This document shows, in pieces, positions 27,049-48,630 of a DNA stretch of 64,000 nt. The stretch lies in NCBI GenBank assembly GCA_964012805.1, contig CAXGUD010000012.1:32001-96000 (forward strand), written 5' to 3'. The DNA comes from an uncultured Bacteriovoracaceae bacterium (GTDB taxonomy: Bacteria; Bdellovibrionota; Bacteriovoracia; Bacteriovoracales; Bacteriovoracaceae). Positions within the stretch are counted from its first letter, which is position 1, and each line of letters starts with the position of its first letter. The notes under the pieces are model-generated. The model ran no database searches. It was not told the origin of the DNA and was given only the letters and a program-made list of their open reading frames with translations. A program made the translations under genes and the position numbers.

Positions 27049-29175
27049 ATGAATTTTAGATTTCTGTCGATTTTCCTTTCTATGATTTTAAGTACTAATC
27101 TCTTTTCTTTTCCTTCCTATATGAAAAGGGATGTCGATGCCTTTTTAAAGCTTAAAAAGCAAATTAAAAAGGAAGTTAAGAAATTTAACAAGGAAACAAA
27201 ATTCACCATAAAGTCATCAATGTTTGGCGGCTCAAGTAAGAAATATAATTTTTATCAAAATGTGGTACCAAATTATTGCCAGTTTGGTATTGAACAACAG
27301 GTTCATGAATCGAAAAACTCCATCTTTAGAACAAAAGATGGAAAAGGTATTGTAAACAGAAGCGGGCCTGTAGATATCGGTGATGACCTGGATATGTTCA
27401 CCAAGGATTATAATCCAAGAAAGAACTTGGGTTACTCAATAAGGTTTAATAATTATTTGGGCAAAACAAATCCTTTAACCCTTAATTATAAAAGTAAATC
27501 TGAAAGAGATAAGGTCAAAGATGCACTGAATGTTGTTCAGAGGCTTTGTAGAGACAAGAAAAGAAGGCTTAGGAACCTAATTTCAGCTGGAGTTGATCCC
27601 GTGGAAGTAGGGGAACTTGGTAAGTTGAAAAAGGGTGAAAAGAGTCAAGGTTATAACAGGAACCCTTATGATCTCTCAAAATTTAGTGGGAAAGGCTTCA
27701 AAAATAATCCTGCTATGACTATTCCAACTTCAAGTAAGTTTGGTCCTTTCCCTTACAGAACAAGTGGACAGGATCTTGTGACAGTTGGAGCGCTTGGAGG
27801 AGAAAGATCATTTATTAGAAGAATTGCCATTTCACAACAGGCCAAAAAATCAATTGATATTTTAAACTTACAATTTATGGCCGATGAAATCGGAATGGTC
27901 TTAGGAGAAATTTTAATCAATAAAAGAAAGCAAGGAGTCAATGTAAGACTTTATATTGATGCTTTTTCGGTTTTTGTTGATGGAAGGGATGCGATCGCTC
28001 AAGGGAATTCTTATATTCTCTATAGAAATATGATGGCCCATGGAATTCCTGTTTATGGTTTCCAGTGTGATTCTAAGTGGAGACTCCTAAAGCAAGAATG
28101 GGACAATACCAAGAAAATTAAGGGGCGTTCCTGGATGCATAGGTTCCATGAGAAAATATGGATTGCTGATGGAGAAGTAGCAATTGTTGGAGGTGCCAAT
28201 ATTACCGCTTCTTACCACATGGTTTACCCCAATGGGCGTTTGAGATGGAGGGATATGGATGTCGAAATGACAGGAAGAAAAACAATTAAGGATTTGACCA
28301 ATAGGATAGATGAAAAGGTTAAGCTTTATAATAGAGACTTTCCTGATCCAACTAAAATGAAGTGTTTTAATAAATATCCAGTTGGTACAGTTAAGTGGAA
28401 AAACTTTGCTAAGAACGAAAGTAAAAAGTATATTCCTTTTGGGTCAGGTAAAATAAGTAAGGACCAAGACTTTGCCATGAAGTATGTCAAAAAATTAACG
28501 AAAGGAGATTTTAACCTTGAAGGTAAAAAGTGGAAATTGAGAAAGGTTAGGACAAAGGGCTCGAGAGTTGTTTTCTCGAGACCAAAGTTTGGAGAACTTT
28601 ACCTTGAGCAGGTTTACATAGACCTGATCAATAAGTCTAAGTATGAAATCCTCTTAGAAAACTCTTATTTTATTCCCTCACAGCCACTTTTAGACGCCTT
28701 AATTAAGGCCTCTCAAAGAGGTGTAAAAATTAAAATTTTGACTAATGGTCCTGAAACAAACGAACCACCTATGGTCATGACTCCGCTAGCGAGGTTCTAT
28801 TACAAGGACCTCATGGACGTAAATCAAGGGAATAAAAGGCATGAAGCAGAGATTTATGAGTGGAATGGTCGTTATAAAAACGGTAAAGATATCCATTTTG
28901 GAATGGTCCACTCTAAGTTTGCTGTTTTCGATAGGCAAATTACACTTATTGGATCTTATAACTTTGATAATGTAAGTAGGGACTTTAATGAAGAGTTGGC
29001 AATTCTTTATGATGGAACAGATTTGGCGCTTTTTATTGCTAAAAGGTTCTATGAATATGATTTGAATTACACGGAAAGGATTAAATACAAGGATGCATTA
29101 AAATATAAGAAGCCAAGGAATTTTGGTCAACAGATGATTTTAAAAATGCTTAGAAAGATGGAAAGTAGGATTTAG
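27049..29175 (+). CDS. Secreted phospholipase D superfamily protein (two HKD motifs)
   Basis: Signal peptide; HEKIWIAD...GGAN, WRDMD and HSKFAVFD...GSYNFD. Confidence 0.9.
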   Translation: MNFRFLSIFLSMILSTNLFSFPSYMKRDVDAFLKLKKQIKKEVKKFNKETKFTIKSSMFGGSSKKYNFYQNVVPNYCQFGIEQQVHESKNSIFRTKDGKGIVNRSGPVDIGDDLDMFTKDYNPRKNLGYSIRFNNYLGKTNPLTLNYKSKSERDKVKDALNVVQRLCRDKKRRLRNLISAGVDPVEVGELGKLKKGEKSQGYNRNPYDLSKFSGKGFKNNPAMTIPTSSKFGPFPYRTSGQDLVTVGALGGERSFIRRIAISQQAKKSIDILNLQFMADEIGMVLGEILINKRKQGVNVRLYIDAFSVFVDGRDAIAQGNSYILYRNMMAHGIPVYGFQCDSKWRLLKQEWDNTKKIKGRSWMHRFHEKIWIADGEVAIVGGANITASYHMVYPNGRLRWRDMDVEMTGRKTIKDLTNRIDEKVKLYNRDFPDPTKMKCFNKYPVGTVKWKNFAKNESKKYIPFGSGKISKDQDFAMKYVKKLTKGDFNLEGKKWKLRKVRTKGSRVVFSRPKFGELYLEQVYIDLINKSKYEILLENSYFIPSQPLLDALIKASQRGVKIKILTNGPETNEPPMVMTPLARFYYKDLMDVNQGNKRHEAEIYEWNGRYKNGKDIHFGMVHSKFAVFDRQITLIGSYNFDNVSRDFNEELAILYDGTDLALFIAKRFYEYDLNYTERIKYKDALKYKKPRNFGQQMILKMLRKMESRI

Positions 29176-29918: not shown

Positions 29919-30440
29919 TCAAAGAGGGCCTTTAATAAAAAATTGGTTCACTTCCCGGAAGGCTTCACTTATTGATTTTTCGAATTTTAATTTATGGGGA
30001 GTTGACTCTTTGGGCTTTTTACCAACATAAGCGTTAAGACATTTGTCTAGCCTTTTTAAATAAGCAAAGGTACTGGCCCCTTCTTCTACTGTTAGGTAGC
30101 ATTTACTGGCCTCAAGAAAATCCTTAACTCCACCTTTTTTCTTTAGAACATTAAAAGCTACTTTTCTTGCAGGTTTGATAAGTGACTGTGGAGGTTGAAT
30201 TTTTGTGAGCTTAAAATAGGAGTAAAGAACAGAAGTTGCATAGTTCTTGCACATCAGTGTTTCAAGTTCCTCAAGTTTTGTTTTCGCGTTAGAAAGAGTC
30301 GAATGAAGGGTAAAGGTCAAAAGAGTTACTTTAAATGATAGGACGAAAAATATCTTCATTGAAATTACCCTAAGATTTAATTTTATGGAAATAAAAGAGA
30401 TTTTCGCAAAGCTAAAATAAACTTTTAGCCTTTTTTGCAT
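29919..30440 (-). CDS. Hypothetical protein, probably exported
   Basis: Signal-like segment from the Met at 30359; three Cys; no recognised motif. Confidence 0.55.
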   Translation of the reverse strand: MQKRLKVYFSFAKISFISIKLNLRVISMKIFFVLSFKVTLLTFTLHSTLSNAKTKLEELETLMCKNYATSVLYSYFKLTKIQPPQSLIKPARKVAFNVLKKKGGVKDFLEASKCYLTVEEGASTFAYLKRLDKCLNAYVGKKPKESTPHKLKFEKSISEAFREVNQFFIKGPL

Positions 30441-30701
30441 TCCTCGTTAAGCTTGCGATTTAAAATTTTTTCTTAATTTTCTCAGCTATTCACTTATCGG
30501 TTAAAGAAACAGAGAGCTTATCTTTAAATTCACTTTTTCAAATAACGAAAACTAAGTGGATTCTTAGCGCCTTTTTGAGACAAAGTTTAGTCGGGTTGTG
30601 AATAGGCTACCATGTGTAGTCCTTTTCTTGTATCATTCGAGAAATGAAGTTGACTGGTTGGGTCAGGCAAGTGACCAAATAAAATAATCATAAGGTCCTA
30701 A

Positions 30702-33647
30702 ATGAAAGCAAAAGAAAAAAGTGGAAGGAAATCAGGTAGTTATGAAGATTCTTTAAAGAATCGGGAAGAAGGGTTCCGCGATATTGTTAAGGAATTAGGG
30801 CATATCCACGTTGTAGGTGCCAAAGAACACAATCTAAAAAATATTGAAGTCAAAATACCCAAAAAAAAGCTCGTTATTATAACCGGGGTTTCCGGTTCGG
30901 GGAAGTCTTCCCTTGCCTTCGATACAGTTTATGCTGAGGGACAGCGTCGCTATGTTGAATCCCTTTCTAGCTATGCAAGACAGTTTTTGGGCCAAATGGA
31001 AAAACCAAAGTTTGATACCATAAAAGGGCTTTCTCCTACCATTGCTATTGAACAAAAAGCTGCTAGTAAAAACCCTAGGTCTACTGTTGGAACAATAACT
31101 GAAGTTTATGATTATTTAAGAGTCCTCTTTGCTCGATTAGGCACTCAGTTTTGTCATAGCTGTGGAAAAGAAGTTGGACGTGGCGATGCCATGAGTATGG
31201 TTAGTCAAATATTAAAAATTCCTGAATCGACTAAGGTTATTCTTCTAGCACCGGTCATTGAAAATAGGAAGGGTGAGCACAAGGAGATTCTCGAGGGTTT
31301 TAAGAAAGAAGGATATAGAAGAGTCCGCATTGACGGAATAGTTCGCGATATAGAAGATGTTCAAAGCCTTGCCAAAAACAAAAAGCATAATATTGAGGTG
31401 GTCATTGACCGTCTCAAAATAAAAAAAGATAAGGCCTTTCAAAAAAGGCTCACTGATTCGGTTGAGCAGTCTTTAAAGGTAGGTCATGGACAGATTTTTA
31501 TTCATATAGAGGGGAGAGAAGACCTTAAAATGAGTGAGGCCCGCTCCTGCTGTGGTCATGCCTTTCCAGAACTCATACCTCAACTTTTTTCTTTTAATTC
31601 CCCAACGGGAATGTGCGAGGATTGCCATGGACTGGGGACTGTTATTGATATAGACATTGACAAAGTGGTTCCCAACGAAAATTTATCCATCAGCGAAGGT
31701 GCCGTCAGGCCTTGGGATAATTATTTTGATAGTGATGGATCAAAGAAGGAGCTCTCCTGGGGACTCGCCAGAATAGAGGCCATGGAGGATGCTTGGGGAT
31801 TAGACCTTAATTGTCCTTGGAAAAAGATTCCCAAAAAAATAAAGGAAAGAATCCTCTATGGTTGTGAGGATCCTCGCTATCAACTGACCATGCAGTGGTT
31901 TGGAGAGAGTGGAGAAGGTCAGTGGAACACTCATTATGAAGGACTTATTCCCAGGCTTATGAGGCTTTACCTGAAACATAAAAGTGATGGGCGTAGGTCT
32001 TGGATTTCCAAATATATTTCAACCCTTAATTGTCAGACTTGTGGAGGAAAAAGGTTAAAAAATGAGGTCCAGCATGTGCTTGTTAAGGATAAGTCCATTA
32101 GTGAAGTGACCTCTATGTCGATACAGGATGCTTTGAACTTCTTTAAGGGAATGAAACTTAAAGGCAACCAAAAGTTAATTGCTGAGGAGCTTTTAAAAGA
32201 AATTAAAGATAGGCTCCGTTTTCTTGTTAATGTTGGCCTTAATTACCTTTCCTTGGACCGCCATGGGCCAAGTTTGTCTGGAGGGGAGGCGCAAAGAATC
32301 CGCTTGGCCTCTCAAATAGGAAGCGAATTGACGGGAGTTCTTTATATTTTAGATGAGCCTTCTATTGGTCTTCATCAAAGAGATAATATAAAACTGATCA
32401 ATACGCTAAAAAGGTTAAGAGATATTGGTAATAGTCTTATTGTTGTTGAGCATGACCAAGAGACTATGGAAGCTTCTGACTGGATTGTCGATATAGGCCC
32501 GGGAGCGGGTCATTTGGGTGGACAAATTATTGCTGAGGGGACTCCGGCCCAGTTGAAAAGGAGCCGGGTTTCCATGACGGGTCACTACCTAAGTGGCAAG
32601 GAAAATATACCCCTCCCTGAAGAAGTTCGAAAACCAGGTGACAAATGGCTTAGGATTATAGGGGCCACTGAGAATAATTTGCAAAATATAACTGCGGAGA
32701 TTCCTATAGGTCTTTTCACCTGTGTCACTGGAGTTAGTGGAGCTGGTAAATCAACTCTTATTAATCAGATCTTGTATCCGGCACTTAATAGGTTGCTTCA
32801 CGATTCTGATATGGAAGTAGGGAAGTATGAATCGATTGAAGGTCTCGATTATTTTGATAAGGTCATCAATATTGATCAAAAGCCTATAGGCAAAACACCC
32901 CGATCAAATCCAGCAACTTACACGAAAGTTTTTGACCTTATTCGAGACCTTTTTGAGCAGGTTCCGGAAGCCAAGGTTCGTGGTTATAAAAAAGGGCGTT
33001 TCTCATTTAATGTAAAAGGCGGACGTTGTGAGAAATGTGAAGGTGATGGATTTATAACAGTTGAAATGCATTTTCTTGCCGATGTTCTGGTTCCTTGTGA
33101 AGCCTGTAAAACGAAGCGTTTTAATCAACCAACGCTTGAAATTCTTTTTAAAGGTCACTCTATCGCTGATGTGTTGGATTTATCGGTTTCTGAGGCGCTG
33201 GAACTTTTTACAAATCAGCCAAAAATAAAAAAGATTTTGACTACATTGATGGACGTTGGACTTGGCTACATAAAACTAGGGCAACCTGCCACCACTCTTT
33301 CTGGAGGAGAGGCCCAAAGAATTAAATTGGCCAAAGAACTTTCAAAAAGGGATACAGGTAAGACTCTCTATATTCTCGACGAACCGACAACAGGTCTCCA
33401 TTTTCAGGATATTAAAAAACTTCTTAGCGTTTTAGACAGGCTTGTTAAAGGGGGAAATACGATCATTGTTATAGAACACAACCTGGATGTTATAAAGTGC
33501 GCTGACTGGTGCCTTGAGATAGGTCCTGAGGGGGGTCACCTTGGAGGTAAGGTTGTGGCCACCGGTTCACCGAAAAAGTTATCTCAGTCTAAAAAGGGTC
33601 CAACGGGAAGCTTTTTAAAAGAGATCTTCAAGAATCTTCCAAGTTAA
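30702..33647 (+). CDS. uvrA: Excinuclease ABC subunit A
   Basis: GAKEHNLKN, two Walker A motifs (GVSGSGKSS, GVSGAGKST), two LSGGEAQRI, zinc fingers and TPRSNPATYT. Confidence 0.98.
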   Translation: MKAKEKSGRKSGSYEDSLKNREEGFRDIVKELGHIHVVGAKEHNLKNIEVKIPKKKLVIITGVSGSGKSSLAFDTVYAEGQRRYVESLSSYARQFLGQMEKPKFDTIKGLSPTIAIEQKAASKNPRSTVGTITEVYDYLRVLFARLGTQFCHSCGKEVGRGDAMSMVSQILKIPESTKVILLAPVIENRKGEHKEILEGFKKEGYRRVRIDGIVRDIEDVQSLAKNKKHNIEVVIDRLKIKKDKAFQKRLTDSVEQSLKVGHGQIFIHIEGREDLKMSEARSCCGHAFPELIPQLFSFNSPTGMCEDCHGLGTVIDIDIDKVVPNENLSISEGAVRPWDNYFDSDGSKKELSWGLARIEAMEDAWGLDLNCPWKKIPKKIKERILYGCEDPRYQLTMQWFGESGEGQWNTHYEGLIPRLMRLYLKHKSDGRRSWISKYISTLNCQTCGGKRLKNEVQHVLVKDKSISEVTSMSIQDALNFFKGMKLKGNQKLIAEELLKEIKDRLRFLVNVGLNYLSLDRHGPSLSGGEAQRIRLASQIGSELTGVLYILDEPSIGLHQRDNIKLINTLKRLRDIGNSLIVVEHDQETMEASDWIVDIGPGAGHLGGQIIAEGTPAQLKRSRVSMTGHYLSGKENIPLPEEVRKPGDKWLRIIGATENNLQNITAEIPIGLFTCVTGVSGAGKSTLINQILYPALNRLLHDSDMEVGKYESIEGLDYFDKVINIDQKPIGKTPRSNPATYTKVFDLIRDLFEQVPEAKVRGYKKGRFSFNVKGGRCEKCEGDGFITVEMHFLADVLVPCEACKTKRFNQPTLEILFKGHSIADVLDLSVSEALELFTNQPKIKKILTTLMDVGLGYIKLGQPATTLSGGEAQRIKLAKELSKRDTGKTLYILDEPTTGLHFQDIKKLLSVLDRLVKGGNTIIVIEHNLDVIKCADWCLEIGPEGGHLGGKVVATGSPKKLSQSKKGPTGSFLKEIFKNLPS

Positions 33648-33714
33648 GATACAATTATCTAAGATAAGCAATAATAATTCATTATGTTCTTCATAAATTT
33701 TTCAAGGATGGAAA

Positions 33715-34491
33715 ATGAAGTCTTTAGTTTTTTTTAGTTCAGTATTATTGTCACTTTTTATTTCATCACCTGGCGCCCTTTCCAAAGAAAAAGAAAAAAC
33801 ATTTAAATTGGCAACGATTGAATGGCCTCCCTACACTTCAAGTAAAATAAAAGGCAAAGGATGGGCCAGTGCAGTTGTTAAAGCTGTATTTAAGAATCAA
33901 GGATATAATGTAAGAGTTGCTATTATGTCGGGAAAAAATACTTGGGGCAAAGTTCTAAGAAATGTGAAAAGTGGTAAATTTCTTGGAGGTTTTCCAGCTT
34001 ATTATTCTGAAGAAAGAACCATAGACTACTTTATCACCAGGGCTTTTGGAAGCGGTCCTCTTGCCTTCTTTAAGAGAAAGGGAGAAGAAATTCCTTTCGA
34101 TGGAGATCTTGAAACGCTAAAGAATTTCAAAATTGGTGTTGTTAAAGATTATTATAATGGAGAGGTTTTTACCAGGGCTGACTATTTAAAAAAGAGAATG
34201 TTTAAAAGTGACCGTGTTAGTCTTGTTATGTTGACAAAAAAGAGGGTCGACCTCGTCCTCCTTGATAAATTAGTCACCGAGTACCACTTAAATAACGACC
34301 CCTACTTAAAAAAATTAAAGGGAGGCCTTCAGGTTGTTAAGCCAGTTCTCCAAAATAAAGACCTTCACGTTCTTTTTACGAAAAAGAACAAGATGGGCGC
34401 AAAACTTACGATAGCTTTTAATAAGGGCTTAAATGCCATTAGAGAAAGTGGTGAACTTAAGAAAATTTTAGAAGAGTACAAAGCGAACTAA
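33715..34491 (+). CDS. Family-3 solute-binding protein
   Basis: Signal peptide, EWPPY, IGVVKDY, RVD and FNKGLNAIRESGEL. Confidence 0.85.
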   Translation: MKSLVFFSSVLLSLFISSPGALSKEKEKTFKLATIEWPPYTSSKIKGKGWASAVVKAVFKNQGYNVRVAIMSGKNTWGKVLRNVKSGKFLGGFPAYYSEERTIDYFITRAFGSGPLAFFKRKGEEIPFDGDLETLKNFKIGVVKDYYNGEVFTRADYLKKRMFKSDRVSLVMLTKKRVDLVLLDKLVTEYHLNNDPYLKKLKGGLQVVKPVLQNKDLHVLFTKKNKMGAKLTIAFNKGLNAIRESGELKKILEEYKAN

Positions 34492-34640
34492 AAAGAGAAG
34501 CCAGTTAAAAAGTAAAGCCAGTTAAAATGTAAAGTTGACCCTGTTTTAAACGAATAGAAAGTTTCGTAAAATGATCTCTATGAGGTACTCTAAGACCTTT
34601 TTTTCCACCCAAAATTTCATTTTGATAAAGGGAATTAAAA

Positions 34641-36308
34641 ATGGATGATTCATCAAAAACAAGTCTTATAAAAGAAGGTCTACCTTCCGCCATACTTCTT
34701 GTGATACTTGTTATTATTGGCATTGTCCTTGATAAAATGGGTCAAGACATCCATTGGCCTGGTTATTTGTCCATGGTCCTTTTTTATGTAGTGATCTTTG
34801 TTGTGGGAACTTATGCAGCTCACATTGGTCGACAAAAGCAAAAAGACCTTAATACGGATTCAACTGATACTATGATGTTAGCAGGCCGCTCTGTCCCCTT
34901 GATGATGGCAGTCTTTACCATGAGTGCCACTTGGGTTGGTGGAGGTTATATCAATGGAACAGCAGAATACGCTTATAATCCAGATTATGGTCTTGTATGG
35001 GCACAGGCCCCATGGGGTTATGCTATTAGCTTAATTTTGGGAGGACTCTTTTTCGCAAAAAAGATGAGGCGTCACGAATTTAAAACAATGCTGGACCCTT
35101 TTGAAAGAAGGTATGGAAAAGGGGTGGCAGGCGTTCTTTATCTTCCTGCCCTTATGGGTGAAACTTTTTGGACAGCTGCGATTTTAACAGCTTTGGGTTC
35201 AACCTTTGGAACAGTTCTTGGTCTCGATTTCACGCCTTCAATTATATTATCAGCAGCAGTCGCGATCGCTTATACCGCTTTAGGTGGACTTTGGGCGGTT
35301 GCTTTAACTGATATGATTCAAATGGTCCTACTCCTTGTAGGGTTATTTCTTGTTCTTCCCTTTGCTTTAGATCATGTTGGAGGCTGGGATTGGGCCTGGC
35401 AAACCTATGAAAAGAAAATGGGCCCTATAGCTTCTTTTTTGCCATCTAAAGCAGCTCTGGGTAATTATTTTTATAATTGGTGGGATTATGCTTTTCTTCT
35501 AATGATGGGAGGAATTCCTTGGCACGTTTATTTTCAACGTGTTCTTTCTTCCAAAGATGAAAATACTGCTCAAAGGTTATCTATTATCGCTGGGTTGGTT
35601 TGTATTTTAGCAGCTATTCCCGCTAGTATGATTGGGATTATTGGAAATGTTGTGGATTGGACAACTGTTGGGTTATCACAAGCTCCTGAAGCGGCTCAAG
35701 TTCTCCCTAATGTTGTTCGTTATCTAACAAATCCTTGGGTAGCGACGATTGGACTGGGAGCGATTGCAGCAGCCGTTATGTCCTCAGTGGATTCATCAAT
35801 TCTCTCGGCTTCATCGATGGCCGGTTGGAATGTTTTTAGACCTCTTTATTCTCACTTTAAGAAAAAAGAAGTGGAGCCTAAGTCTCTTGCTAAAGTTATT
35901 CAAGGGTGTATTTGGATTGTTGGGATTGCTGCCACTTTAATTGCTTTAAGAAAGGGAAGTGTTTACGAGCTTTGGTTTTTATGCAGTGACTTTGTCTACT
36001 GTATTCTCTTTCCTCAATTAGTTTTGGCGCTTTATGATAAGAAGGCCAATACTATAGGAAGTATTTGCGGCTTTATTGTGGCCGCGATACTCCGCTTTGG
36101 GGGTGGAGAGTCTTCTTTAGGTATTCCTGACTTTTTTGAATATCACAAAGTATTCGGAATGCCGGAGTTATATGATGCCAAGGCAAACAAAGGACTTTTT
36201 CCTTTTAGGACACTAGCTATGGTTTCAAGCCTTATAACAATCATGGTTGTTTCAAGGCTGACTCAAAAAATAAGTCCTCCAAGATCTCTAGAAAAGACAG
36301 ATGTTTAA
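34641..36308 (+). CDS. Sodium:solute symporter, high-affinity choline transporter (CHT1/SLC5A7)-like
   Basis: ATWVGGGYINGTAE, WAQAPWGYAISLILGGLFFAK, TMLDPF, PALMGETFW, GGIPWHVYFQRVLS, AAVMSSVDSSILS and FPFRTLAM closely match the CHT1 sequence as I recall it. Confidence 0.88.
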   Translation: MDDSSKTSLIKEGLPSAILLVILVIIGIVLDKMGQDIHWPGYLSMVLFYVVIFVVGTYAAHIGRQKQKDLNTDSTDTMMLAGRSVPLMMAVFTMSATWVGGGYINGTAEYAYNPDYGLVWAQAPWGYAISLILGGLFFAKKMRRHEFKTMLDPFERRYGKGVAGVLYLPALMGETFWTAAILTALGSTFGTVLGLDFTPSIILSAAVAIAYTALGGLWAVALTDMIQMVLLLVGLFLVLPFALDHVGGWDWAWQTYEKKMGPIASFLPSKAALGNYFYNWWDYAFLLMMGGIPWHVYFQRVLSSKDENTAQRLSIIAGLVCILAAIPASMIGIIGNVVDWTTVGLSQAPEAAQVLPNVVRYLTNPWVATIGLGAIAAAVMSSVDSSILSASSMAGWNVFRPLYSHFKKKEVEPKSLAKVIQGCIWIVGIAATLIALRKGSVYELWFLCSDFVYCILFPQLVLALYDKKANTIGSICGFIVAAILRFGGGESSLGIPDFFEYHKVFGMPELYDAKANKGLFPFRTLAMVSSLITIMVVSRLTQKISPPRSLEKTDV

Positions 36309-36347
36309 AAAAAGCATCAAGAGTTAGAGCGTTTATGGGAGGCTTTT

Positions 36348-37205
36348 ATGGTATTGGAGTCAATTGAAAAGGTCTTTTTTCTTCTCTTTGGCTTCGGCCT
36401 TGTCTTTTATATTGGTCTCGTTGTGGAAGCTAGGGAACTCCTCCCTTTTCTAAAAAAGAAAACAACTCTTTTTTTAGGTCCCTTTTATCAATTCGGTGTT
36501 TCTCCACTGATTGCAATTATGCTTGGAAACCTTCTCAAATTGGAAGGGCTTGTTCTTCAAGGTTTTCTTTTGTTATCGATGACTCCTTGTGGTTCAATGC
36601 CAAATTCATTAACGATCGTGGCCAAAGGAAACAAGGAATTAAGTGTTGCGATGACAATTGTGAATTCAATTTTGGGTCTGGTTCTAATTCCTATTTTAGC
36701 GGAAGTTTACCTTAAAAATGAGGGAGAAATAACTCTTCCTTTTTTGAATATGTTTGGAAATTTAGTTGTTCTCGTTTCATGCATTCTTGGAGGAATGTTT
36801 ATTAAAATAAAGAGGAACACATGGACACATTATTTGAAAAAAATAATGACCTTTATACTTTTCCTTAGTATTTTGGGGATATTAATTTTTTCGGGGAAAA
36901 AAATAATAATTCTTTTTTATAAGGCAAGTTTTAAAATCATTTTTGCTTCAATAGCTTTACCTTTGATTCTTTATGTAATTTCCTTTTTTATATCAATATA
37001 TTTAAGACAATCAAAAAGTGATGCCAAGGCGCTAGCATTAGGTTCAGGAACTTTTAATTCTCCTTTAACTATTGTCCTTATTCTAGGAAGTTACCCATTA
37101 AGTGTTTCAGGAGGTGTTTTAAAAATTCCTCTCCTTTATACACCCATAATTATTCTATTGGGTGCTTTGACCGCTTTTGTGTTATCTTTTATTTCGAGAG
37201 ATTGA
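36348..37205 (+). CDS. Bile acid:sodium symporter (BASS) family transporter
   Basis: QFGVSPL, TPCGSMPN, AKGNKELSVAMT; multi-TM. Confidence 0.8.
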   Translation: MVLESIEKVFFLLFGFGLVFYIGLVVEARELLPFLKKKTTLFLGPFYQFGVSPLIAIMLGNLLKLEGLVLQGFLLLSMTPCGSMPNSLTIVAKGNKELSVAMTIVNSILGLVLIPILAEVYLKNEGEITLPFLNMFGNLVVLVSCILGGMFIKIKRNTWTHYLKKIMTFILFLSILGILIFSGKKIIILFYKASFKIIFASIALPLILYVISFFISIYLRQSKSDAKALALGSGTFNSPLTIVLILGSYPLSVSGGVLKIPLLYTPIIILLGALTAFVLSFISRD

Positions 37206-37297
37206 TCAAACTTGTTTGATAAAAATTAATTTATTTTGAAAAATATTAAAATGTAATTAAACTATTCTTATAAATAAATTAAGAAAAGGAATAAATT

Positions 37298-38092
37298 GTG
37301 AAAAAAATTTTTCTGTTAATTTTAATGACCTTTTCAATGCAAGGTATTTCTAAGGACAAAAACAAAAATATAGAGCTTTATGGGGATAATAATTATCCAC
37401 CTTACAGTTATGTTGGAGAAGACAACAAGCTTGTTGGTATATACCCCAGCATATTGAGGGAAGCAGTTAAAGAGATTACAGGTTATAAAGTGACTTTAAA
37501 AGCCGTTCCCTGGAAAAGGGGCTTAAGAATGTTGAAGAAAAATAAAATACAGGGTCTTTTTCCACCATATTTTAGAGTTGAGCAAAGACCTTTTATGTGG
37601 CCTTACTCATTGGCGATACTAGAAGAAGAAGCCGTTGTAGTTTGCAGGAAGGAAGTAAAATTAGGAAAAAAACCTTTCTGGCCAAATGACTTTAAAAATC
37701 TGAAAATAGCAAGGAATCTGGGCTTTGCTACCGGAGGAAATGTCTGGAAACAACTTATTGAAACACAAGAAATCAAAGATCATCAAGTAAGAGATATTGA
37801 GATGGCGATTTTGATGATGTCAAAGGATAGAATTGATTGCTATATGAATGATAGAATAAGTATTTTTTGGACGATTAACAAAATGATTAAAGATAAAAAG
37901 ATTGATAAACATAAAATAGATAAGTTTGTAGAAAAAGCAGTCATTTCAAGGGAAAGAGGATTTATAGGTTATTCATCGAAATGGAACCCTAGTTTTAAGG
38001 AGGACTTCTTAAAAAAACTAGATCATTCTATCCATGAGATGAGGAAGAAAGGTAGAGTGGAAGAAATTAAGAAAAAGTTTCTATCACAGTAA
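37298..38092 (+). CDS. Family-3 solute-binding protein
   Basis: Signal peptide, NYPPYSY, VPWKRGL and RIDCYMND. Confidence 0.85.
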   Translation: MKKIFLLILMTFSMQGISKDKNKNIELYGDNNYPPYSYVGEDNKLVGIYPSILREAVKEITGYKVTLKAVPWKRGLRMLKKNKIQGLFPPYFRVEQRPFMWPYSLAILEEEAVVVCRKEVKLGKKPFWPNDFKNLKIARNLGFATGGNVWKQLIETQEIKDHQVRDIEMAILMMSKDRIDCYMNDRISIFWTINKMIKDKKIDKHKIDKFVEKAVISRERGFIGYSSKWNPSFKEDFLKKLDHSIHEMRKKGRVEEIKKKFLSQ

Positions 38093-38156
38093 ATAAAAAT
38101 AGCTAGAAGTAATTAATACAATTACACATTTTTTAAAATAAGGAAGGTCAGGAGAG

Positions 38157-38993
38157 TTAAGCCTGCTCACCTTCCTCTTCTTCTTCACCTGGTTCTTTTA
38201 GTTCCCTATTTTTAAGTGTAATACTTCTAATCTTTTCTCGCTGAATTTCATTAAACCCTTTAAAAGTCATTTCTGATTTGAAAGTATCTTTAGAAACTTG
38301 CTCCGAAAAAACAACCACACCTTTTAAGTTAAAGTTTACTTTGTAGATATCTGTAAGAGTCTCAGACAAGATGGTTACTACCTCTCCATCTGGAATTTTA
38401 AAAGGTACTTCGAGAAATGCTCCAACTTCTGATAAAGAGCTCAATTTCAAAGGACCCTTACTTTTAAACTCTTGAAGAATTACTACAAGGGTTGAAGGAA
38501 CAGAATGGAAGCGGTTACCAGCACTTTGACCCATGAGTCGTTCAATTTTTTGAAGTAGAATCTTATCATCTATTGGCTTAACAATATAATCGTCTCCCCC
38601 ACCCTGAAGGGCCAAATCAATTTTTGTTTGATCGTCATAGGAGGAACAAAAAAGGATTTTAAGGTTTATTTCATCATTAGAAATTGTATTTTTTATGGCC
38701 TGTTTACTTTTTTCCTCTTCATGCTTTTCAATTTCCTGGGCTTGTTTATTTTTAACCTTTTTCAATTTCAATTTAAGCTGATGAAGTGTTTGGATCCCAT
38801 TCATTTCGGGCATCATTATATCTAGAATGAGGACATTGATAGTGCTATCCTCTTGTAGCATTCTTATGCACTCCTTCCCATTTGATGCTTGAAGGACTTC
38901 ATAGCCTGCTCTACTTAATTTGAGGGCTATAAAAATTCTAAGATCATCACTGTCGTCACAAATGAGGATTTTACCTTTCTTTTCTTCATCCAT
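38157..38993 (-). CDS. Response regulator: receiver with charged insertion plus PilZ-like C-terminal domain
   Basis: ICDDS, LDIMMPEMNG and DYIVKP; C-terminal SLSEVGA...GVVV...F beta pattern. Confidence 0.75.
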   Translation of the reverse strand: MDEEKKGKILICDDSDDLRIFIALKLSRAGYEVLQASNGKECIRMLQEDSTINVLILDIMMPEMNGIQTLHQLKLKLKKVKNKQAQEIEKHEEEKSKQAIKNTISNDEINLKILFCSSYDDQTKIDLALQGGGDDYIVKPIDDKILLQKIERLMGQSAGNRFHSVPSTLVVILQEFKSKGPLKLSSLSEVGAFLEVPFKIPDGEVVTILSETLTDIYKVNFNLKGVVVFSEQVSKDTFKSEMTFKGFNEIQREKIRSITLKNRELKEPGEEEEEGEQA

Positions 38994-39252
38994 TATTTTT
39001 ATCTCAACAAAAATTATAACGGTAACAAAAAGGAGTATTAAACTGAGTTCTATTCTATTAGCTTTTCATAAAAATAAGCTTTTTTTTAAAAAATAAATTA
39101 TAATAAAAAATAAAAAATTTAAATAATATTAATATTATGAATGAAAAAAAAATAAATAAAATTTACCAAAATTATTTTAGTTAAAATTTTTAAGTAAAAT
39201 TCCCGATATGACTAATTACATTGTTTAAACAATAGATGGTAGCCGTAAAAAA

Positions 39253-40314
39253 ATGTTTAATTTATCCTTTTTAACAAAAATATTATTAATCCTCTCAATG
39301 AGTAATACTTTATTTTGTGCGGAAGTTGATAACTTTAGAGGACGATATGAAGATATACCTGATATGAGGGATCTTTTTAATAAAAAAACAAATTTCTATT
39401 TTGAAAAGGGTATTAAGGAACTTAACAAAAAAAACCATAAATGTGAATCAGGTCCTTTATATAAAAAAATGAGGACCTACTTTAGAAATCACATGACTGG
39501 GTCATTTAATAAATGGATGTTAAAGAGTAAAGAGGTTCATGTCGTTTATACCAAACCAAAAGAGAGTATATATAAGTATTGGAATACTTTTGAAAGTTTT
39601 CCAATTAAATTACTTTCTCCTATTATGTTTAAAAAACCAGCAGGTGTTTTGGCCGGTTACGTGAGGGTTGGGCCTGTTTTATTGGGTACCGATAAATTTG
39701 AGCATTTTCTTGGAACGGGCTTTTCTTACTTCAGGTCTTACTTTATAAAAAAGAAATCTATTAACCAGACAGCGCAAATAGGCTGGCGGGATGAAGTCGG
39801 ACCTCTGGGAGGAATGACTGTCGGGGTAATGTCTTTTGGAGATTTAGCCGCAGAATTTAATGGAATGTTCTTTTGGAATGACCTTTTAAGGTTTCATGAC
39901 TCTCTCTCCAAGAAAAAAAAATCTTATGGGACAAAAGATTTCGTTCACGATCATAGAAATGGGCCTTATATTATTTGCAAAAATAATAAGTGGGTCTTAA
40001 ATAAACTTAAACCGTTTGATTGGGGACATTATTTAGATGACAGTATGGATGAAGCGATTAACTGTAGCCTTTTTAAAACAAAAAGTATGGGAATAAAGGT
40101 AAAAAAATCTTTAAGAGAGTTAGAGAAGAAAAAGGGCATAAAGTATAAATGCCCTATGGAACCAGAAAAGTTTAGAAAGTTAAAAAAGAAATACGGTAAA
40201 TATGGTCCTCTTATTTTAAATGAATCAGGTCATGGACCTATTACAAGAGAAATAAGATGGAGAAAATGGCGAAAAATAAATTTAGATACCTATAAAAAAC
40301 CTACACAGAATTAA
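39253..40314 (+). CDS. Hypothetical exported protein
   Basis: Signal peptide; GTDKFEHFLGTG...SFGDLAAEFNG may be a catalytic or metal motif. Function unknown. Confidence 0.7.
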   Translation: MFNLSFLTKILLILSMSNTLFCAEVDNFRGRYEDIPDMRDLFNKKTNFYFEKGIKELNKKNHKCESGPLYKKMRTYFRNHMTGSFNKWMLKSKEVHVVYTKPKESIYKYWNTFESFPIKLLSPIMFKKPAGVLAGYVRVGPVLLGTDKFEHFLGTGFSYFRSYFIKKKSINQTAQIGWRDEVGPLGGMTVGVMSFGDLAAEFNGMFFWNDLLRFHDSLSKKKKSYGTKDFVHDHRNGPYIICKNNKWVLNKLKPFDWGHYLDDSMDEAINCSLFKTKSMGIKVKKSLRELEKKKGIKYKCPMEPEKFRKLKKKYGKYGPLILNESGHGPITREIRWRKWRKINLDTYKKPTQN

Positions 40315-40422
40315 AAGCCTTAATAAAAGATTAATAATATCCCTATATTTTAAATAGTCCGATCGGGTTTAGGTTTTAATGATAGTATGAGTTGAAAAGG
40401 GTAATTTTTATTGGAGAAGTAA

Positions 40423-41238
40423 GTGAAAAAAGAGTTCAATTTCTTTATTATCTTTCTTGTCCTTTTTATAGCTTCAGTAAGTGGTCTGGGTTGGTACATA
40501 AAAAATATTGACCTACCAAAAAAAGAAATAAATAAAGAAAACATAAAAAAAATTATTGATGAAAATCCTCTTTATTTCGCAGAATCTTTCAAAGGGGTTA
40601 TGCTGGCCCTTCAAAACCAGGAGGAAGAAAAAAGAAGAAAGGCTGAGTTAGAAAAAATGGAGGCTTTTTTTGACACCCCATTAAACCCTAAGCTCGATAA
40701 TGAAGCTTTTCTAGGCCCAAAAGATGCCCCTATAACTCTTGTAGAATATTCCGATTTTGAGTGTCCTTATTGTTCTCGCTCTGCTGAAACTGTTAAAGTT
40801 TTGTTGAAGAAGTATCCAGGAAAAATTAAGTTTATTTATAAACATCTTCCTTTGAAATTTCATAAGAATGCAATGATTGCGGCCCAATACTTTGAGGCTG
40901 CACTAATCCAGGATAAGAAAAAGGCCTTTGATTATCATTTCAAAATTTTTGAGTCTCAAAGAACCCTACAAAAGGGCGGGGAAAAGTTTCTAAAAAAATT
41001 GGCCATGGAGCTTGGTTTTGATTCCAAAAGATTAACAAGAGATGCCAACTCAGGGCTCGTTTTGTTAAAAATTAAGTCTCATGTTGATGAAGCAACTCAG
41101 TTTGGCATAAGTGGAACCCCGGGCTTTTTAGTTAATGGAGTTCCTATAAAGGGTGCTTACCCAATTGAATATTTTGATCATATAATTGAACTCATAGTTC
41201 GTAAGAACCCAACTCTTTTCAAAAAGTCTTCTAAATAA
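40423..41238 (+). CDS. DsbA/Com1-like thioredoxin-fold protein
   Basis: YSDFECPYC, KHLPL, GISGTPGFLVNG and N-terminal TM. Confidence 0.92.
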   Translation: MKKEFNFFIIFLVLFIASVSGLGWYIKNIDLPKKEINKENIKKIIDENPLYFAESFKGVMLALQNQEEEKRRKAELEKMEAFFDTPLNPKLDNEAFLGPKDAPITLVEYSDFECPYCSRSAETVKVLLKKYPGKIKFIYKHLPLKFHKNAMIAAQYFEAALIQDKKKAFDYHFKIFESQRTLQKGGEKFLKKLAMELGFDSKRLTRDANSGLVLLKIKSHVDEATQFGISGTPGFLVNGVPIKGAYPIEYFDHIIELIVRKNPTLFKKSSK

Positions 41239-41242
41239 GGCT

Positions 41243-41288
41243 TTTAAAGTTGGTAATATAGGGTGCACTTTATATCACCAACTTTAAA
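41243..41288 (+). terminator. Long inverted repeat downstream of the dsbA-like gene (terminator-like)
   Basis: TTTAAAGTTGGT(A)ATATA...TATAT(C)ACCAACTTTAAA. Confidence 0.55.
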
Positions 41289-41570
41289 TTTTATAGAGTA
41301 TACTTTTGCTATAAAATGTATCTTTTGTATTAAAAGATAAAGAGTCAATTCAAAAGTAATTCACAATAGTAAGTTTTTTTCTAAAACAAAAATACACTCC
41401 ATAATAAAAGGCCAAGTTTTTTTTATTATAAATTGATACTTTTAAGAACATAAACGTGAAGTTTTTTTTTAAATAAGCCGATTGAACCTTCTCCCGCGAT
41501 CACTCGATTAGTTTTAAATTATTTCCCGCAGCTTGTTTTTAATCATTTCTTGAGTATCTTTTGGTTAGGT

Positions 41571-41746
41571 TTTGTCTAGGTTTTGTTGTTGTCTTATTTT
41601 ATACATTTAACCCTAAGAGAGGAAGCAATATTTGAAATATAAGTCTATTTTTAATGGTTTAGCGATTTTTAAAGTCTTTTTTGTTGTTATTTATATAAAA
41701 CTCTAATATTTGATTTTTCTTCACCACAATTTGTCTAGGTTTTGTT
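41571..41746. repeat. 17-bp direct repeat TTTGTCTAGGTTTTGTT (41571-41587 and 41730-41746)
   Basis: Exact copies 159 bp apart; the core TAGGTTTTGT occurs a third time at 41566-41575. Confidence 0.7.
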
Positions 41747-41797
41747 TGGTTATGTGTGTGATATAATTCATGTATATTATTAACCAACGGAGGCTAT

Positions 41798-41941
41798 ATG
41801 AGCTTTGAAACCATTTTGATTGTCTTATTTTTAGCAATCGCAGTTTTCATTTTTGTAGAAACATATTTCAAAGACAACAACAAAGCTGAATCCAAGGAGA
41901 AACAATATGACCAAAGCCCAGAAAACTACAAACGGTTTTAA
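41798..41941 (+). CDS. Small single-TM protein (47 aa), not in the ORF track
   Basis: GGAGG RBS; MSFETILIVLFLAIAVFIFVETYFKDNNKAESKEKQYDQSPENYKRF. Confidence 0.6.
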   Translation: MSFETILIVLFLAIAVFIFVETYFKDNNKAESKEKQYDQSPENYKRF

Positions 41942-42059
41942 TCTTGAAAGCAAAGAAAAAAACCAAGACTCAATAGACAAGAAAAACAAGCAAAGAGAAA
42001 AAGCTTTAAAAGAAAAAAACCAAAAGTCTGTAGAGGAATACCAAAAAATCTATAGATGA
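41907..42059 (+). CDS. Small charged protein (50 aa), not in the ORF track
   Basis: AAGGAG RBS; MTKAQKTTNGFNLESKEKNQDSIDKKNKQREKALKEKNQKSVEEYQKIYR; overlaps the previous ORF. Confidence 0.55.
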   Translation: MTKAQKTTNGFNLESKEKNQDSIDKKNKQREKALKEKNQKSVEEYQKIYR

Positions 42060-42083
42060 GGGGGTTAGTCCGGGAGACTATGT

Positions 42084-42341
42084 ATGATAGTTAAGTTTAA
42101 TGACTACGAGCTGATGAGAAGGGCCCTTTGGGAAATGAACAAAGAGCTACAAATATGCTCCTACAAGAAAGCTTATAGGGTAAACTATGATGTTTGTGAA
42201 ATCCTTTGTGCCAGGAAAGACGTTGCTAACATCTTAATAAAGTTTGGTGGAAAAGTTTTGGAAGCTGATAGCGAGGAAGCCAATCTGTTAAATCCTTCGG
42301 AATGGTTCTCTATGTATAAAATCAATTTGCAATCTAGCTAG
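42084..42341 (+). CDS. Small hypothetical protein (85 aa)
   Basis: GGGAG RBS; third of a run of small co-oriented ORFs. Confidence 0.6.
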   Translation: MIVKFNDYELMRRALWEMNKELQICSYKKAYRVNYDVCEILCARKDVANILIKFGGKVLEADSEEANLLNPSEWFSMYKINLQSS

Positions 42342-42838
42342 ATATCCACCCTTGGCTTGGAAAATCATATAGAATGGTTTTCGAAGCTCGTAAAACTATT
42401 CAGGATCCACTTGAATGAAGTTTATTTTCGAATTGATGGAGCTTTTTTACTATTCATAAAAAGGCTTCCTCTTTTCAAGTCAGCTTTTTTTTATTTTCTT
42501 TTAAGGTTGTATTATATGCACTAAACAAGTTATCGACGATCTCTTTTTTTTCATTATCAGTAGGCTCTTTTTGCACATCCTTATCCCTTTTATTACAATT
42601 TTTTCATTCTTTATCGACATCTAAATTCCAAGCTGATTCTATCTCGAAACCATTTTTTCCGAATTTGTGCAGTATTTGGACAGTAAAAAACCGGAGTAGA
42701 GTGAGATTTATGGAAACGTTGACATGTTCGTTTTTAAAAAAGTTGCACTTTAATTAGGTTTATAAAAAGAACAAACCTTTTTGCATAACGTTAATAATAC
42801 AAATTAAACTCAACCTATAATAATTAATTTAAAAAAAC

Positions 42839-45331: not shown

Positions 45332-47215
45332 ATGGTAAAAGTCATGTTAACAAAAAGCAATTATCTTGAGAAAAGGCGGGTACTCGATAAAGATTCTTTG
45401 GCTTTTCAGCTAGGTGAGACTTTGAAGGCGCTATACCCTAATTTGCAAAGAGAACACGAAGATGTCTTTTTTGAACTGAATTTATTGTTAAATGAAATTT
45501 ATCCAGAGCTTGAAAAAAGTCTTGATAGCAATCAAAAGTTTTTTGGTGGGATGCCTACCGATTGGAGTGCTTCCTCCCTTTTTGAATATTATCTCAAGAG
45601 GCGTGAACCACTTCCTCAGCATTGCAATTATGGTTTTATATTAGAAGATTTTCTTCCAAATACATTTAACCCCCTTCTAAAGGCAGCTACTTTTGCTCTA
45701 AATCTTTATCACTTTTTAAAAGAAAAAAAAGAAGGGAATTTTAAGAGTACTCCAACAAAGTGGGGAATGGTAGATAATACTGTTTACCAAAAGTTCATCC
45801 ACCTTACGAGAAGACCCGGGATTGGTAGAGACTCTGTCGTCTATAATTCCTGGGAGGATATTCAATCAATAATTATTATTTATAATGGACACTATTTTAA
45901 AGTTCCTCTTTTTAATAAAGAATATAAGCGTGCTTATAGTGCATTAGAGTTAACCAAGTCACTTAATAAAATAGTTAATTTAAAAAAAGATAGAAAGAAC
46001 TCCTTTCCTTTAGGAGTCATGACTTCGTTAAACCGTGATAAATGGGCAATTTATCAAGACTCTTTTAAAAAAATTGAGAACTTTTCTGTATTTCTAGATG
46101 AATTAGAAAAGTCACTTTTTGTCCTTTCTCTAGACTTAAATGAATTTCCATCAACTAAAAGTGATAGGGTAAGGCTTGCAATTGATGGTCGTGCAGAAAA
46201 CCGCTGGTACGATAAATCTTTAAATCTTTCCATTTCCAAGAATGGAACAATAAGTGTTAATTGTGACCATCTCATTATGGATGGTTCACCCTTTTTAGAA
46301 ATGATCAATAGCGCATTCGAAGCGGGCGATTCCAATGAAACTGACCATAATCAAATGAATCATCTTTGTGAAAAGAGTGTGCCTTTTTTTGAATTAGTGT
46401 CACCTGATATAAGTAGTAATATTTCTAAAAATGAGCAAATGGCTGTTTTAAATGAAATAAATAAAGAAAAAAATGAGATAAGCTGCACCCATTATGAGCT
46501 GTCCATAGGAACTGATATTTTCAATAAAATGAAGCTACGTCCTGATATGTCTTTTCAGCTTTTTATTCAAATGGCCAGTTTCATTACTTTTAGTTCGATT
46601 CTCTCAACGAGTCAGGCAGTTGAAACGAGAAATTTTGAATACGGGCGTTATGACACCATCCTTTCAAATTCAAATTATATTCAAAGATTAACAAACCTTT
46701 TTGAAAATTCTTATGACCAGGAAAGTGCAAGGCCTTTCATATCACTTTTTAAAGCAATGGTTGAAAATCAAAAAAATAAAATCGTAAGCTGTAAAAACGG
46801 TGAGGCCATGATAACCTATTTAGACGCCCTTTTGGTTTTGGACTTACCCTTAGAAAACCCAAAAAGAAAATCTTTAGACCGTTTTAAGTTTCTTTTCGAA
46901 ACAAATCCAATTTTAAAAGGTCTGATGGACCCCTATATATCAACTTCAGGAATACCTCATGTAAGGTCAATTGATACTTTTGCTTTCACTGATTTTGGAA
47001 AGGATAAATTGGGTCTTGGTTATATTATAGGACCCAAAAAAGTCATTCTTGGAGAATATCGACTTGGAGATTTTAAAATTAAAAAAGATAATTTTATAAA
47101 AAATCTTAAGGCAATTATTAAAAAATTTATTTTACTCCATAAAGACCATGAAATAGAAGTCGAAGATGGTAAAATTTCAAATCATGGAGAGGAATTTTTG
47201 AAGGAAGTAAGGTGA
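45332..47215 (+). CDS. Choline/carnitine O-acyltransferase family protein
   Basis: YLKRREPLP, GVMTSLNRDKWA, FVLSLD, NRWYDKS, catalytic DHLIMDG (His313), PDMSFQLFIQMA, TRNFEYGRYDT and STS motif; full length (627 aa). Confidence 0.88.
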   Translation: MVKVMLTKSNYLEKRRVLDKDSLAFQLGETLKALYPNLQREHEDVFFELNLLLNEIYPELEKSLDSNQKFFGGMPTDWSASSLFEYYLKRREPLPQHCNYGFILEDFLPNTFNPLLKAATFALNLYHFLKEKKEGNFKSTPTKWGMVDNTVYQKFIHLTRRPGIGRDSVVYNSWEDIQSIIIIYNGHYFKVPLFNKEYKRAYSALELTKSLNKIVNLKKDRKNSFPLGVMTSLNRDKWAIYQDSFKKIENFSVFLDELEKSLFVLSLDLNEFPSTKSDRVRLAIDGRAENRWYDKSLNLSISKNGTISVNCDHLIMDGSPFLEMINSAFEAGDSNETDHNQMNHLCEKSVPFFELVSPDISSNISKNEQMAVLNEINKEKNEISCTHYELSIGTDIFNKMKLRPDMSFQLFIQMASFITFSSILSTSQAVETRNFEYGRYDTILSNSNYIQRLTNLFENSYDQESARPFISLFKAMVENQKNKIVSCKNGEAMITYLDALLVLDLPLENPKRKSLDRFKFLFETNPILKGLMDPYISTSGIPHVRSIDTFAFTDFGKDKLGLGYIIGPKKVILGEYRLGDFKIKKDNFIKNLKAIIKKFILLHKDHEIEVEDGKISNHGEEFLKEVR

Positions 47216-47216
47216 A

Positions 47217-47543
47217 ATGATGGGTTGGATTTATTTATTGAGTGCAATTTTATTGGAAGTTTCAGGTACTATGTCTATGAAATTGTCAGAAGGACTCACA
47301 AAAACAATTCCCTCTATTTTAATATTTATTTTTTATGGTCTATCCCTGTCTCTTTTGACTTTGGCCTTAAAATTCATTCCCGTAAGTATTGCTTACGCTA
47401 TATGGTCTGGGATAGGCACGGCCCTCATTGCTATTATTGGTTTTACCTTTTTTGATGAAAGTTTTAGCGCTTTAAAATGGCTTGGAATTGGTCTCATTAT
47501 AATAGGGGTTGTCTTGATAAATTTAAAAGGTACGGCCCATTAA
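47217..47543 (+). CDS. SMR family (EmrE/Qac-like) small multidrug efflux transporter
   Basis: LLEVSGTMSMKLSEG (membrane Glu), IAYAIWSGIG, 4 TM; starts 1 nt after the acyltransferase stop. Confidence 0.93.
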   Translation: MMGWIYLLSAILLEVSGTMSMKLSEGLTKTIPSILIFIFYGLSLSLLTLALKFIPVSIAYAIWSGIGTALIAIIGFTFFDESFSALKWLGIGLIIIGVVLINLKGTAH

Positions 47544-47557
47544 ATTTAGGTTTTTTT

Positions 47558-48505: not shown

Positions 48506-48630
48506 GGGGGCAACCTCCTAAAAGATAATGAATTTAGAGTACCTAATAAATATAACTCATTATAGCGAAAAGGTGAGAGTAAATTCTTAGTCTATTTAAA
48601 TCAATTTTTCCCTATTATTTCTTAATTTCC

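What the first reader, a model, noticed from the sequence alone, without database searches (positions are those of the whole stretch)
34641..36308. Transporter strikingly similar to animal CHT1/SLC5A7, about 9 kb from the acyltransferase
Seen: long stretches nearly identical to CHT1 as I recall it (ATWVGGGYINGTAE; AQAPxGYxxSLILGGLFFAK; PALMGExFW; GGIPWxxYFQRVLS; LWxLxSDxVYxxxFPQL; FPFxTLAM). The Trp/Tyr residues of those motifs, which form the choline aromatic cage in CHT1, are retained. Established: bacteria usually import choline by BCCT (BetT) or ABC systems. Inference: this supplies choline to the acyltransferase-SMR pair, giving import, acylation and export like a cholinergic terminal. 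The genes are not in one operon, so the linkage may be chance.
Basis: partly seen in the sequence, partly recalled or inferred. Interest (0 to 1): 0.7.

Follow-up and report, generated by a model that had tools for sequence, protein, structure and literature searches.

The report
Bacterial neuron-type choline importer, already known
This gene is a close bacterial relative of the nerve-cell choline transporter CHT1, a kind already solved and assayed in another bacterium, and it likely imports choline to make the salt-protectant glycine betaine; its closeness to a choline/carnitine acyltransferase gene is likely incidental.

Summary
34641-36308 encodes a 555-aa sodium:solute symporter with all six quoted motifs and all six CHT1 choline-site aromatics. 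It trees with animal CHT1, not PutP/PanF/ActP/YidK (100/100). It is not new: its best solved relative is bacterial sfCHT (PDB 9RWS, E 1.6e-177), already shown to be a Na+-dependent, hemicholinium-sensitive choline transporter (PMC13220886). The scan also noted this family on other DNA (e1-4475416).

The 'cholinergic terminal' link is not supported. In a congener the acyltransferase-SMR pair stays together but lies over 51 kb from the transporter. No acyltransferase was found in 77 loci of other relatives (flanks often short); 41 of 77 lie beside phosphatidylcholine-synthase-like or choline-dehydrogenase-like genes. Both genes occur in all three genomes of this genus, but so do two unrelated neighbours. 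This genome has betA and a betB-like gene but no Pcs or LicD, so betaine synthesis is the likely sink. The acyltransferase is rare, divergent and of unknown acceptor, and deserves its own look.

The parts
34641..36308 (+). CHT1/SLC5A7-family Na+/choline symporter (P0001, 555 aa): cage W98, Y103, Y127, W177, W294, W445; Na2 A96, V99, A378, S381, S382; Na3 D224, D384, S385; exit path R83, Q299, R300, S303
   Evidence: residue roles from PMC13220886 and PMC11589582
36348..37205 (+). BASS/SBF-family transporter 39 bp downstream; neighbour only, sits on another contig than CHT in G002
45332..47215 (+). Divergent choline/carnitine O-acyltransferase-family protein (P0002, 627 aa); H313 and STS 537-539 kept, acceptor unknown; not linked to CHT in G002
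47217..47543 (+). SMR-family small transporter directly after the acyltransferase; pair kept in 3 of 3 genus genomes

Best explanation
The gene encodes a member of the bacterial CHT1-homologue family that likely imports choline together with Na+, and the choline is likely oxidised by the genome's unlinked BetA and BetB-like enzymes to the osmolyte glycine betaine. Shown: family placement, conservation of the choline-cage, Na+-site and exit-gate residues, and the presence of betA in all three genus genomes. Inferred from sfCHT and CHT1: alternating-access symport, with the trimethylammonium held by cation-pi contacts in the Trp/Tyr cage and released past Q299/R300/R83. Also inferred: the betaine sink and its osmoprotective role in a marine organism. 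The acyltransferase-SMR pair is a separate unit that happens to lie in the same block in two of three genomes.
For: Top structures are sfCHT and human CHT1; sfCHT is an assayed Na+-dependent, HC-3-sensitive choline transporter. The tree puts P0001 with animal CHT1 against PutP/PanF/ActP/YidK at 100/100. The key residues are kept, and most are invariant in 25 of 25 aligned homologues. Among 77 metagenome loci (49 clusters at 90%), 26 have a Pcs-like gene and 16 a GMC oxidoreductase within 2.5 kb; 41 of 77 (28 of 49 clusters) have either. Six of 8 GMCs tested pass the betA cut-off, and 3 of 3 aldehyde dehydrogenases pass the PRK13252 BetB cut-off. The Priestia homologue is divergent from betB. 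The G004 homologue heads a betB-like/betA-like run, though both score below cut-off. G000 BetA scores 834.8 against a cut-off of 732.1; betA passes in only 5 of 237 family genomes, two of them in this genus, and the third genus copy is cut by a contig end. No Pcs, LicD or choline kinase was found in G000, which is rated 100% complete. The DNA occurs in marine metagenomes.
Against: No transport assay on this protein. CHT, betA and the betB-like gene are on three different contigs in G000, so the sink is not shown by gene order here. The BetB candidate scores 657.6 against a cut-off of 668.6. The BetA tree joins this genus's BetA to other family members, not to the CHT-linked betBA operons, so the genes were probably not gained together. 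A BetT-like BCCT (632 bits, cut-off 695) and OpuAC proteins could already supply choline or betaine. H295 replaces a Gln found in CHT1, sfCHT and 20 of 25 aligned homologues. The seven Pcs-like proteins tested all score below the genus-specific Pcs cut-offs.
Confidence: 0.68

Rival explanations
1. It imports choline, but mainly as a carbon, nitrogen or methyl source: choline or betaine is broken down further, for instance by the genus's Rieske oxygenase.
For: All three genus genomes carry one PF00848 Rieske oxygenase. Its closest solved relative is carnitine monooxygenase CntA (E 2.6e-40). The sfCHT paper names C/N supply as a possible role.
Against: The oxygenase scores 106.8 against a GbcA cut-off of 670. 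No sarcosine oxidase alpha subunit passes its cut-off in 3 of 3 genomes. It is not linked to CHT.
Confidence: 0.15
2. One reading: CHT feeds choline to the ChAT-fold acyltransferase, which makes an acylcholine that the SMR protein exports.
For: Both genes are rare in the family and present in the same 3 of 237 genomes (CHT also in one more). They are 9.0 and 5.3 kb apart in G000 and G001; two random points fall within 10.7 kb only about 0.5% of the time, though the pair was picked after the fact. The acyltransferase keeps the catalytic His and the STS motif. Like ChAT, it lacks the Thr and Arg that carnitine enzymes have at positions 440 and 495 (their role in binding the carnitine carboxylate is recalled). 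SMR proteins export quaternary ammonium compounds.
Against: Unlinked in G002 (over 51 kb). None of 77 other CHT loci carries the acyltransferase, and none of the 7 long homologues found is a fusion with it. Two control genes show the same genus-only pattern. The fold search does not favour ChAT over CPT2/CrAT (TM about 0.8 and 17-19% identity to all). The enzyme also departs from ChAT at the Tyr-Glu-Ser and Arg positions that ChAT keeps. The bacterial ChATs identified so far are hexapeptide-repeat proteins (PMC13391359 passages).
Confidence: 0.07
3. The family is right but the substrate has shifted to another quaternary amine or amino alcohol in this lineage.
For: The Q-to-H change at 295, next to cage residue W294, is confined to this genus and P0005 among 25 aligned sequences. 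A BetT-like transporter is already present.
Against: All six aromatics and the Na+ and gate residues are unchanged. Relatives sit beside two different choline-consuming pathways.
Confidence: 0.1

Closest known systems
sfCHT, Salimicrobium flavidum Na+-dependent choline transporter (PDB 9RWS/9RWT; PMC13220886)
   Same: About 54% identical over 544 residues (hand count); aligns from residue 9, including the N-terminal region that human CHT1 lacks; W99/Y126/W176/W298/W445, A97/T98/V100/Q226 and R84/Q303/R304/S307 all have identical counterparts.
   Different: H295 in place of Q299; different host group (Bacteriovoracaceae-type); not assayed.
Human CHT1 / SLC5A7 (PDB 8J74, 9BFI; PMC11589582)
   Same: About 44% identical over 508 residues; six-aromatic cage, VGGGY loop, Na2 and Na3 residues kept.
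   Different: Has an extra N-terminal segment; the alignment ends at CHT1 residue 501 of 580; F446 in place of HC-3 contact Y407; Cl- dependence untested. It is not the bacterial branch nearest the animal clade.
CHT homologues beside pcs or betBA in marine metagenomes and Priestia megaterium
   Same: 55-66% identity (52% for Priestia); same family.
   Different: Here the gene stands apart from any choline-pathway gene; betA and betB-like are elsewhere and pcs was not found.
BetT (BCCT) and ABC choline uptake
   Same: Same presumed substrate; a BetT-like BCCT and OpuAC proteins are also in this genome.
   Different: A different transporter family from this PF00474 protein.

Membership tests
CHT1/SLC5A7-type choline symporters (incl. 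sfCHT) | SSS (PF00474) protein whose closest characterised relatives are CHT1/sfCHT | tested here: met
   595 and 409 bits against 48 for the next SSS structure
CHT1/SLC5A7-type choline symporters (incl. sfCHT) | One clade with animal CHT1 to the exclusion of other SSS | tested here: met
   30-row clade 100/100 against E. coli PutP, PanF, ActP, YidK (34 rows, LG+G4; long outgroup branches; no urea transporter included)
CHT1/SLC5A7-type choline symporters (incl. sfCHT) | Six-aromatic choline site (W62, Y67, Y91, W141, W254, W406) | tested here: met
   W98, Y103, Y127, W177, W294, W445
CHT1/SLC5A7-type choline symporters (incl. sfCHT) | Na2/Na3 residues and VGGGY loop | tested here: met
   A96, V99, A378, S381, S382; D224, D384, S385; V99-Y103
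CHT1/SLC5A7-type choline symporters (incl. sfCHT) | Cytoplasmic exit residues R47/Q259/R260/S263 | tested here: met
   R83, Q299, R300, S303
CHT1/SLC5A7-type choline symporters (incl. sfCHT) | Na+-dependent, HC-3-sensitive choline uptake | not testable with these tools
   needs an assay; shown for sfCHT only
PutP / PanF | Score over the equivalog cut-off | tested here: not met
   PutP 99.8 vs 515.5; PanF 98.1 vs 328.05
Cholinergic-terminal-like module (CHT + ChAT + exporter) | Conserved physical linkage of transporter and acyltransferase | tested here: not met
   linked in 2 of 3 genus genomes, unlinked in G002; 0 of 77 other loci
Cholinergic-terminal-like module (CHT + ChAT + exporter) | Co-occurrence in independent lineages | tested here: inconclusive
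   one lineage has both; G004 has CHT only (75% complete); G345 has only a divergent PF00755 protein in which I saw no His motif; whole genomes outside this phylum could not be searched
Choline acetyltransferase (for P0002) | Closer to ChAT than to carnitine acyltransferases in sequence, fold and acceptor site | tested here: not met
   no preference; acceptor-side residues differ from both
Choline acetyltransferase (for P0002) | Acylcholine formation | not testable with these tools
   needs an enzyme assay

The most novel reading that the evidence does not exclude
This marine Bacteriovoracaceae-type genus imports choline through a CHT1-type symporter, acylates it with a true ChAT-fold enzyme, and exports the acylcholine through an SMR protein. 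It would be a bacterial use of the animal enzyme fold for acylcholine synthesis, aimed at prey or eukaryotic neighbours; the bacterial ChATs found so far use another fold.
Probability: 0.07. Interest if true: 0.75.

Novelty: new member of a known kind. Interest (0 to 1): 0.17.

Why it matters
Little as it stands: bacterial CHT1 homologues are common (3584 of 7998 scored candidates at E <= 1e-50, animals included) and one is solved and assayed. Two side results have modest value. The sfCHT paper says the physiological role of the prokaryotic homologues is unclear; the neighbourhood count here (41 of 77 loci beside pcs-like or betA-like genes) points to phosphatidylcholine and betaine synthesis as the usual uses. 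The neighbouring acyltransferase-SMR pair is a small, genus-restricted family with a remodelled acceptor site, and is the part of this region that is actually unexplained.

Tried and rejected
PutP/PanF/ActP/YidK identity: rejected. CHT-acyltransferase fusion: none among 7 proteins of 973-2775 aa, all animal gene models with other domains or none; the tool calls this weak evidence. Acyltransferase near other CHT genes: 0 of 77 at E <= 1, with positive controls found at E <= 2.4e-20; only 17 of 77 loci hold 9.1 kb downstream and 29 upstream. Three of the 80 loci (L065-L067, 94-100% identical) were left out as the same genus. Joint gain of CHT with betBA as one operon: not supported by the BetA tree. 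A Bacteroidota donor: the nearest named relatives are Bacteroidota, but the genus clade sits beside them in FastTree and among them with only 84/44 support in IQ-TREE, so no donor is claimed. Acetylcholine-receptor-type domain PF02931: 0 of 5 genomes, but the control rang nowhere, so uninformative. BetI: no match over cut-off in 3 genomes. Rfam: 0 matches in 30000-49000. Promoter and terminator scans: at chance level. Phage collection: no match. G345's PF00755 protein is too divergent to count as a clean counter-example. A paper source for the ChAT/CrAT specificity residues was not obtained, so those roles are recalled.

Full report
Observation. The ORF at 34641-36308 encodes 555 aa, family PF00474. 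Against solved structures it scores 594.9 bits with 9RWS/9RWT, 409 bits with human CHT1 (8J74, 9BFI) and 47.9 bits or less with the other 11 of the 14 matches. Counting by hand on those alignments gives about 54% and 44% identity. It is far below the PutP and PanF cut-offs. The acyltransferase (PF00755) starts 9.0 kb downstream, followed 1 bp after its stop by an SMR gene.

Host. The genome has 4.47 Mb, 130 contigs and 35% GC and is rated 100% complete. The two nearest CHT relatives in the genome collection are in records titled Halobacteriovoraceae and Bacteriovoracales bacterium. Six runs hold half or more of the sampled words; three of these are flagged as a possible source, and the other three are marine metagenomes.

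It is a known kind. 9RWS/9RWT is sfCHT of Salimicrobium flavidum. I read parts 1-4 of 9 of PMC13220886 (abstract, introduction, results, discussion; not methods or supplements). It shows Na+-dependent, hemicholinium-3-sensitive choline uptake in proteoliposomes, states that CHT1 homologues occur across bacterial genomes, and says their physiological role is unclear. Every functional residue named there has an identical counterpart here: W98, Y127, W177, W294, W445; A96, T97, V99, Q227; R83, Q299, R300, S303. The human CHT1 residues listed in passages of PMC11589582 are also kept: Y103, A378, S381, S382, D224, D384, S385. The exception is Y407, which is F446 here. H295 replaces a Gln in 4 of 25 aligned sequences. 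A 34-row IQ-TREE puts P0001, other bacterial homologues and named animal CHT1 in one clade (100/100) against E. coli PutP, PanF, ActP and YidK. P0001 lies in a 14-row branch with Priestia and Bacteroidota proteins (99/97), not next to the animal clade. No urea transporter was in the tree. The family is large: 3584 of 7998 scored candidates pass E 1e-50, and the Atlas returns clusters that are 96-100% bacterial.

What relatives sit beside. A metagenome scan returned 80 loci; I dropped 3 from this genus and analysed 77, which form 49 clusters at 90% identity. Within 2.5 kb, 26 loci (17 clusters) have a phosphatidylcholine-synthase-like gene and 16 (12 clusters) a GMC oxidoreductase; 41 of 77 (28 of 49) have one or the other. 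All 7 Pcs-like proteins tested match Pcs models best, but below their cut-offs. Six of 8 GMCs pass the betA cut-off, and 3 of 3 aldehyde dehydrogenases pass the PRK13252 BetB cut-off. The one plasmid hit, in Priestia megaterium, is divergent from betB. The divergent homologue in G004 precedes betB-like and betA-like genes, both below cut-off. Two unrelated choline-consuming pathways beside the same transporter family is independent support for choline as substrate.

The link to the acyltransferase. For it: in 237 family genomes CHT occurs in 4 and PF00755 in 3, and those 3 are the genus genomes that also carry CHT. In a 401-genome phylum sample CHT was found only in G000, and PF00755 in G000 and G345. 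G001 keeps the block, with the genes 5.3 kb apart. Against it: in G002 the acyltransferase-SMR pair is intact but on another contig with no shared neighbours, at least 51 kb from CHT given the contig lengths. As a control, 101 of 246 orthologue pairs 9-13 kb apart in 473 kb of G002 stay within 25 kb in G000, and 94 more are unresolved at contig ends. So this pair did no better than background; this is a single event in a 68%-complete assembly. A profile of the acyltransferase found nothing in the 77 loci, with controls positive, though only 17 loci reach 9.1 kb downstream and 29 upstream. No fusion appeared among 7 long homologues. The BASS gene and a phosphatase-like gene show the same genus-only pattern, 3 of 41 each; a third control, the PLD-like gene, is wider, 6 of 41. 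Shared ancestry is therefore enough to explain the co-occurrence.

The acyltransferase. The AlphaFold model (mean pLDDT 84.8) matches CPT2, CrAT, CrOT and ChAT alike (TM 0.76-0.80, 16-19% identity). H313 and STS 537-539 are kept. The positions that are Tyr-Glu-Ser, Thr, Arg and Arg in most of the 18 distant homologues are S427-Q428-A429, Y440, L444 and T495 in the family (L444 varies in two). Rat ChAT has Val and Asn at the Thr and second Arg positions but keeps Tyr-Glu-Ser and the first Arg. From recall, not from a call, those residues bind the carnitine carboxylate. So carnitine is unlikely, choline is possible, and neither is shown. From PMC11852590 I saw passages and part 1 of section 5, which cover the catalytic His and the CoA residues. 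Passages of PMC13391359 show that the bacterial acetylcholine synthases identified there are hexapeptide-repeat proteins. Search listings showed no paper on a bacterial CHT-acyltransferase unit; the library lacks most subscription journals.

Where the choline likely goes. G000 has BetA above cut-off and a BetB candidate just below it (657.6 vs 668.6; the G002 orthologue passes). BetA passes in 5 of 237 family genomes, including G000 and G002, and G001's copy is cut by a contig end. No Pcs model match, LicD or choline kinase was found in G000; Pcs-like queries hit only a weak 25-33% CDP-alcohol transferase. A BetT-like BCCT and OpuAC proteins exist as well, so CHT would be one of several routes, presumably the Na+-driven high-affinity one (inferred). 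These genes are unlinked, so the sink is inferred from gene content, not gene order.

Verdict. A real CHT1-family gene, a new member of a family already characterised in bacteria, likely feeding betaine synthesis (0.68). The cholinergic-module reading is not excluded but is unlikely (0.07). Interest 0.17. Supplements of the sfCHT paper (its homologue alignment, fig. S1) were not read and may already list close relatives.

Noticed in passing
window 45332-47543 (+): Acyltransferase-SMR pair kept in 3 of 3 genus genomes. Only 8 clusters at 58% identity or more, then a drop to about 25%. All 7 full-length members have S427/Q428/A429, Y440, L444 and T495, where 18 distant homologues mostly have Tyr-Glu-Ser, Thr, Arg and Arg. 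The CrAT CoA lysines K419/K423 align to T394/N398. In G002 the pair sits among acyl-CoA and beta-oxidation-like genes (my reading of the sequences). Acceptor and donor unknown.
   Followed up: partly
window 34641-36308, residue 295: His replaces the Gln after cage residue W294 in this genus and P0005 only (4 of 25 aligned).
   Followed up: partly
L009, L010, L049, L157 (G002): CHT, BASS, acyltransferase-SMR and betA each sit singly in different gene blocks than in G000, as if they move independently. In G002 the BASS gene lies about 4.7 kb from the betB orthologue.
   Followed up: partly
L011:4591-9024 (G004): A divergent CHT (39% identity) runs into a betB-like gene and a GMC oxidoreductase, both below cut-off. 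It belongs to a different CHT branch, so the family likely gained CHT twice.
   Followed up: partly
L163:943-2076 (G000:C25): Rieske oxygenase present in all three genus genomes, closest solved relative CntA; may act on a quaternary amine.
   Followed up: partly
window 27049-29175 (+): Phospholipase D-like protein with two HKD-type motifs and a hydrophobic N-terminus, 5.5 kb upstream of CHT, with several paralogues in the genus. It could free choline from lipids, but nothing here shows that.
   Followed up: partly
window 47558-48505 (-): Tyrosine-phosphatase-like protein (weak PF13350 match) found only in this genus among 41 genomes.
   Followed up: no
L014:982-2850 (G345): Very divergent PF00755 protein in another family of the phylum; I saw no catalytic His motif in it.
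   Followed up: no
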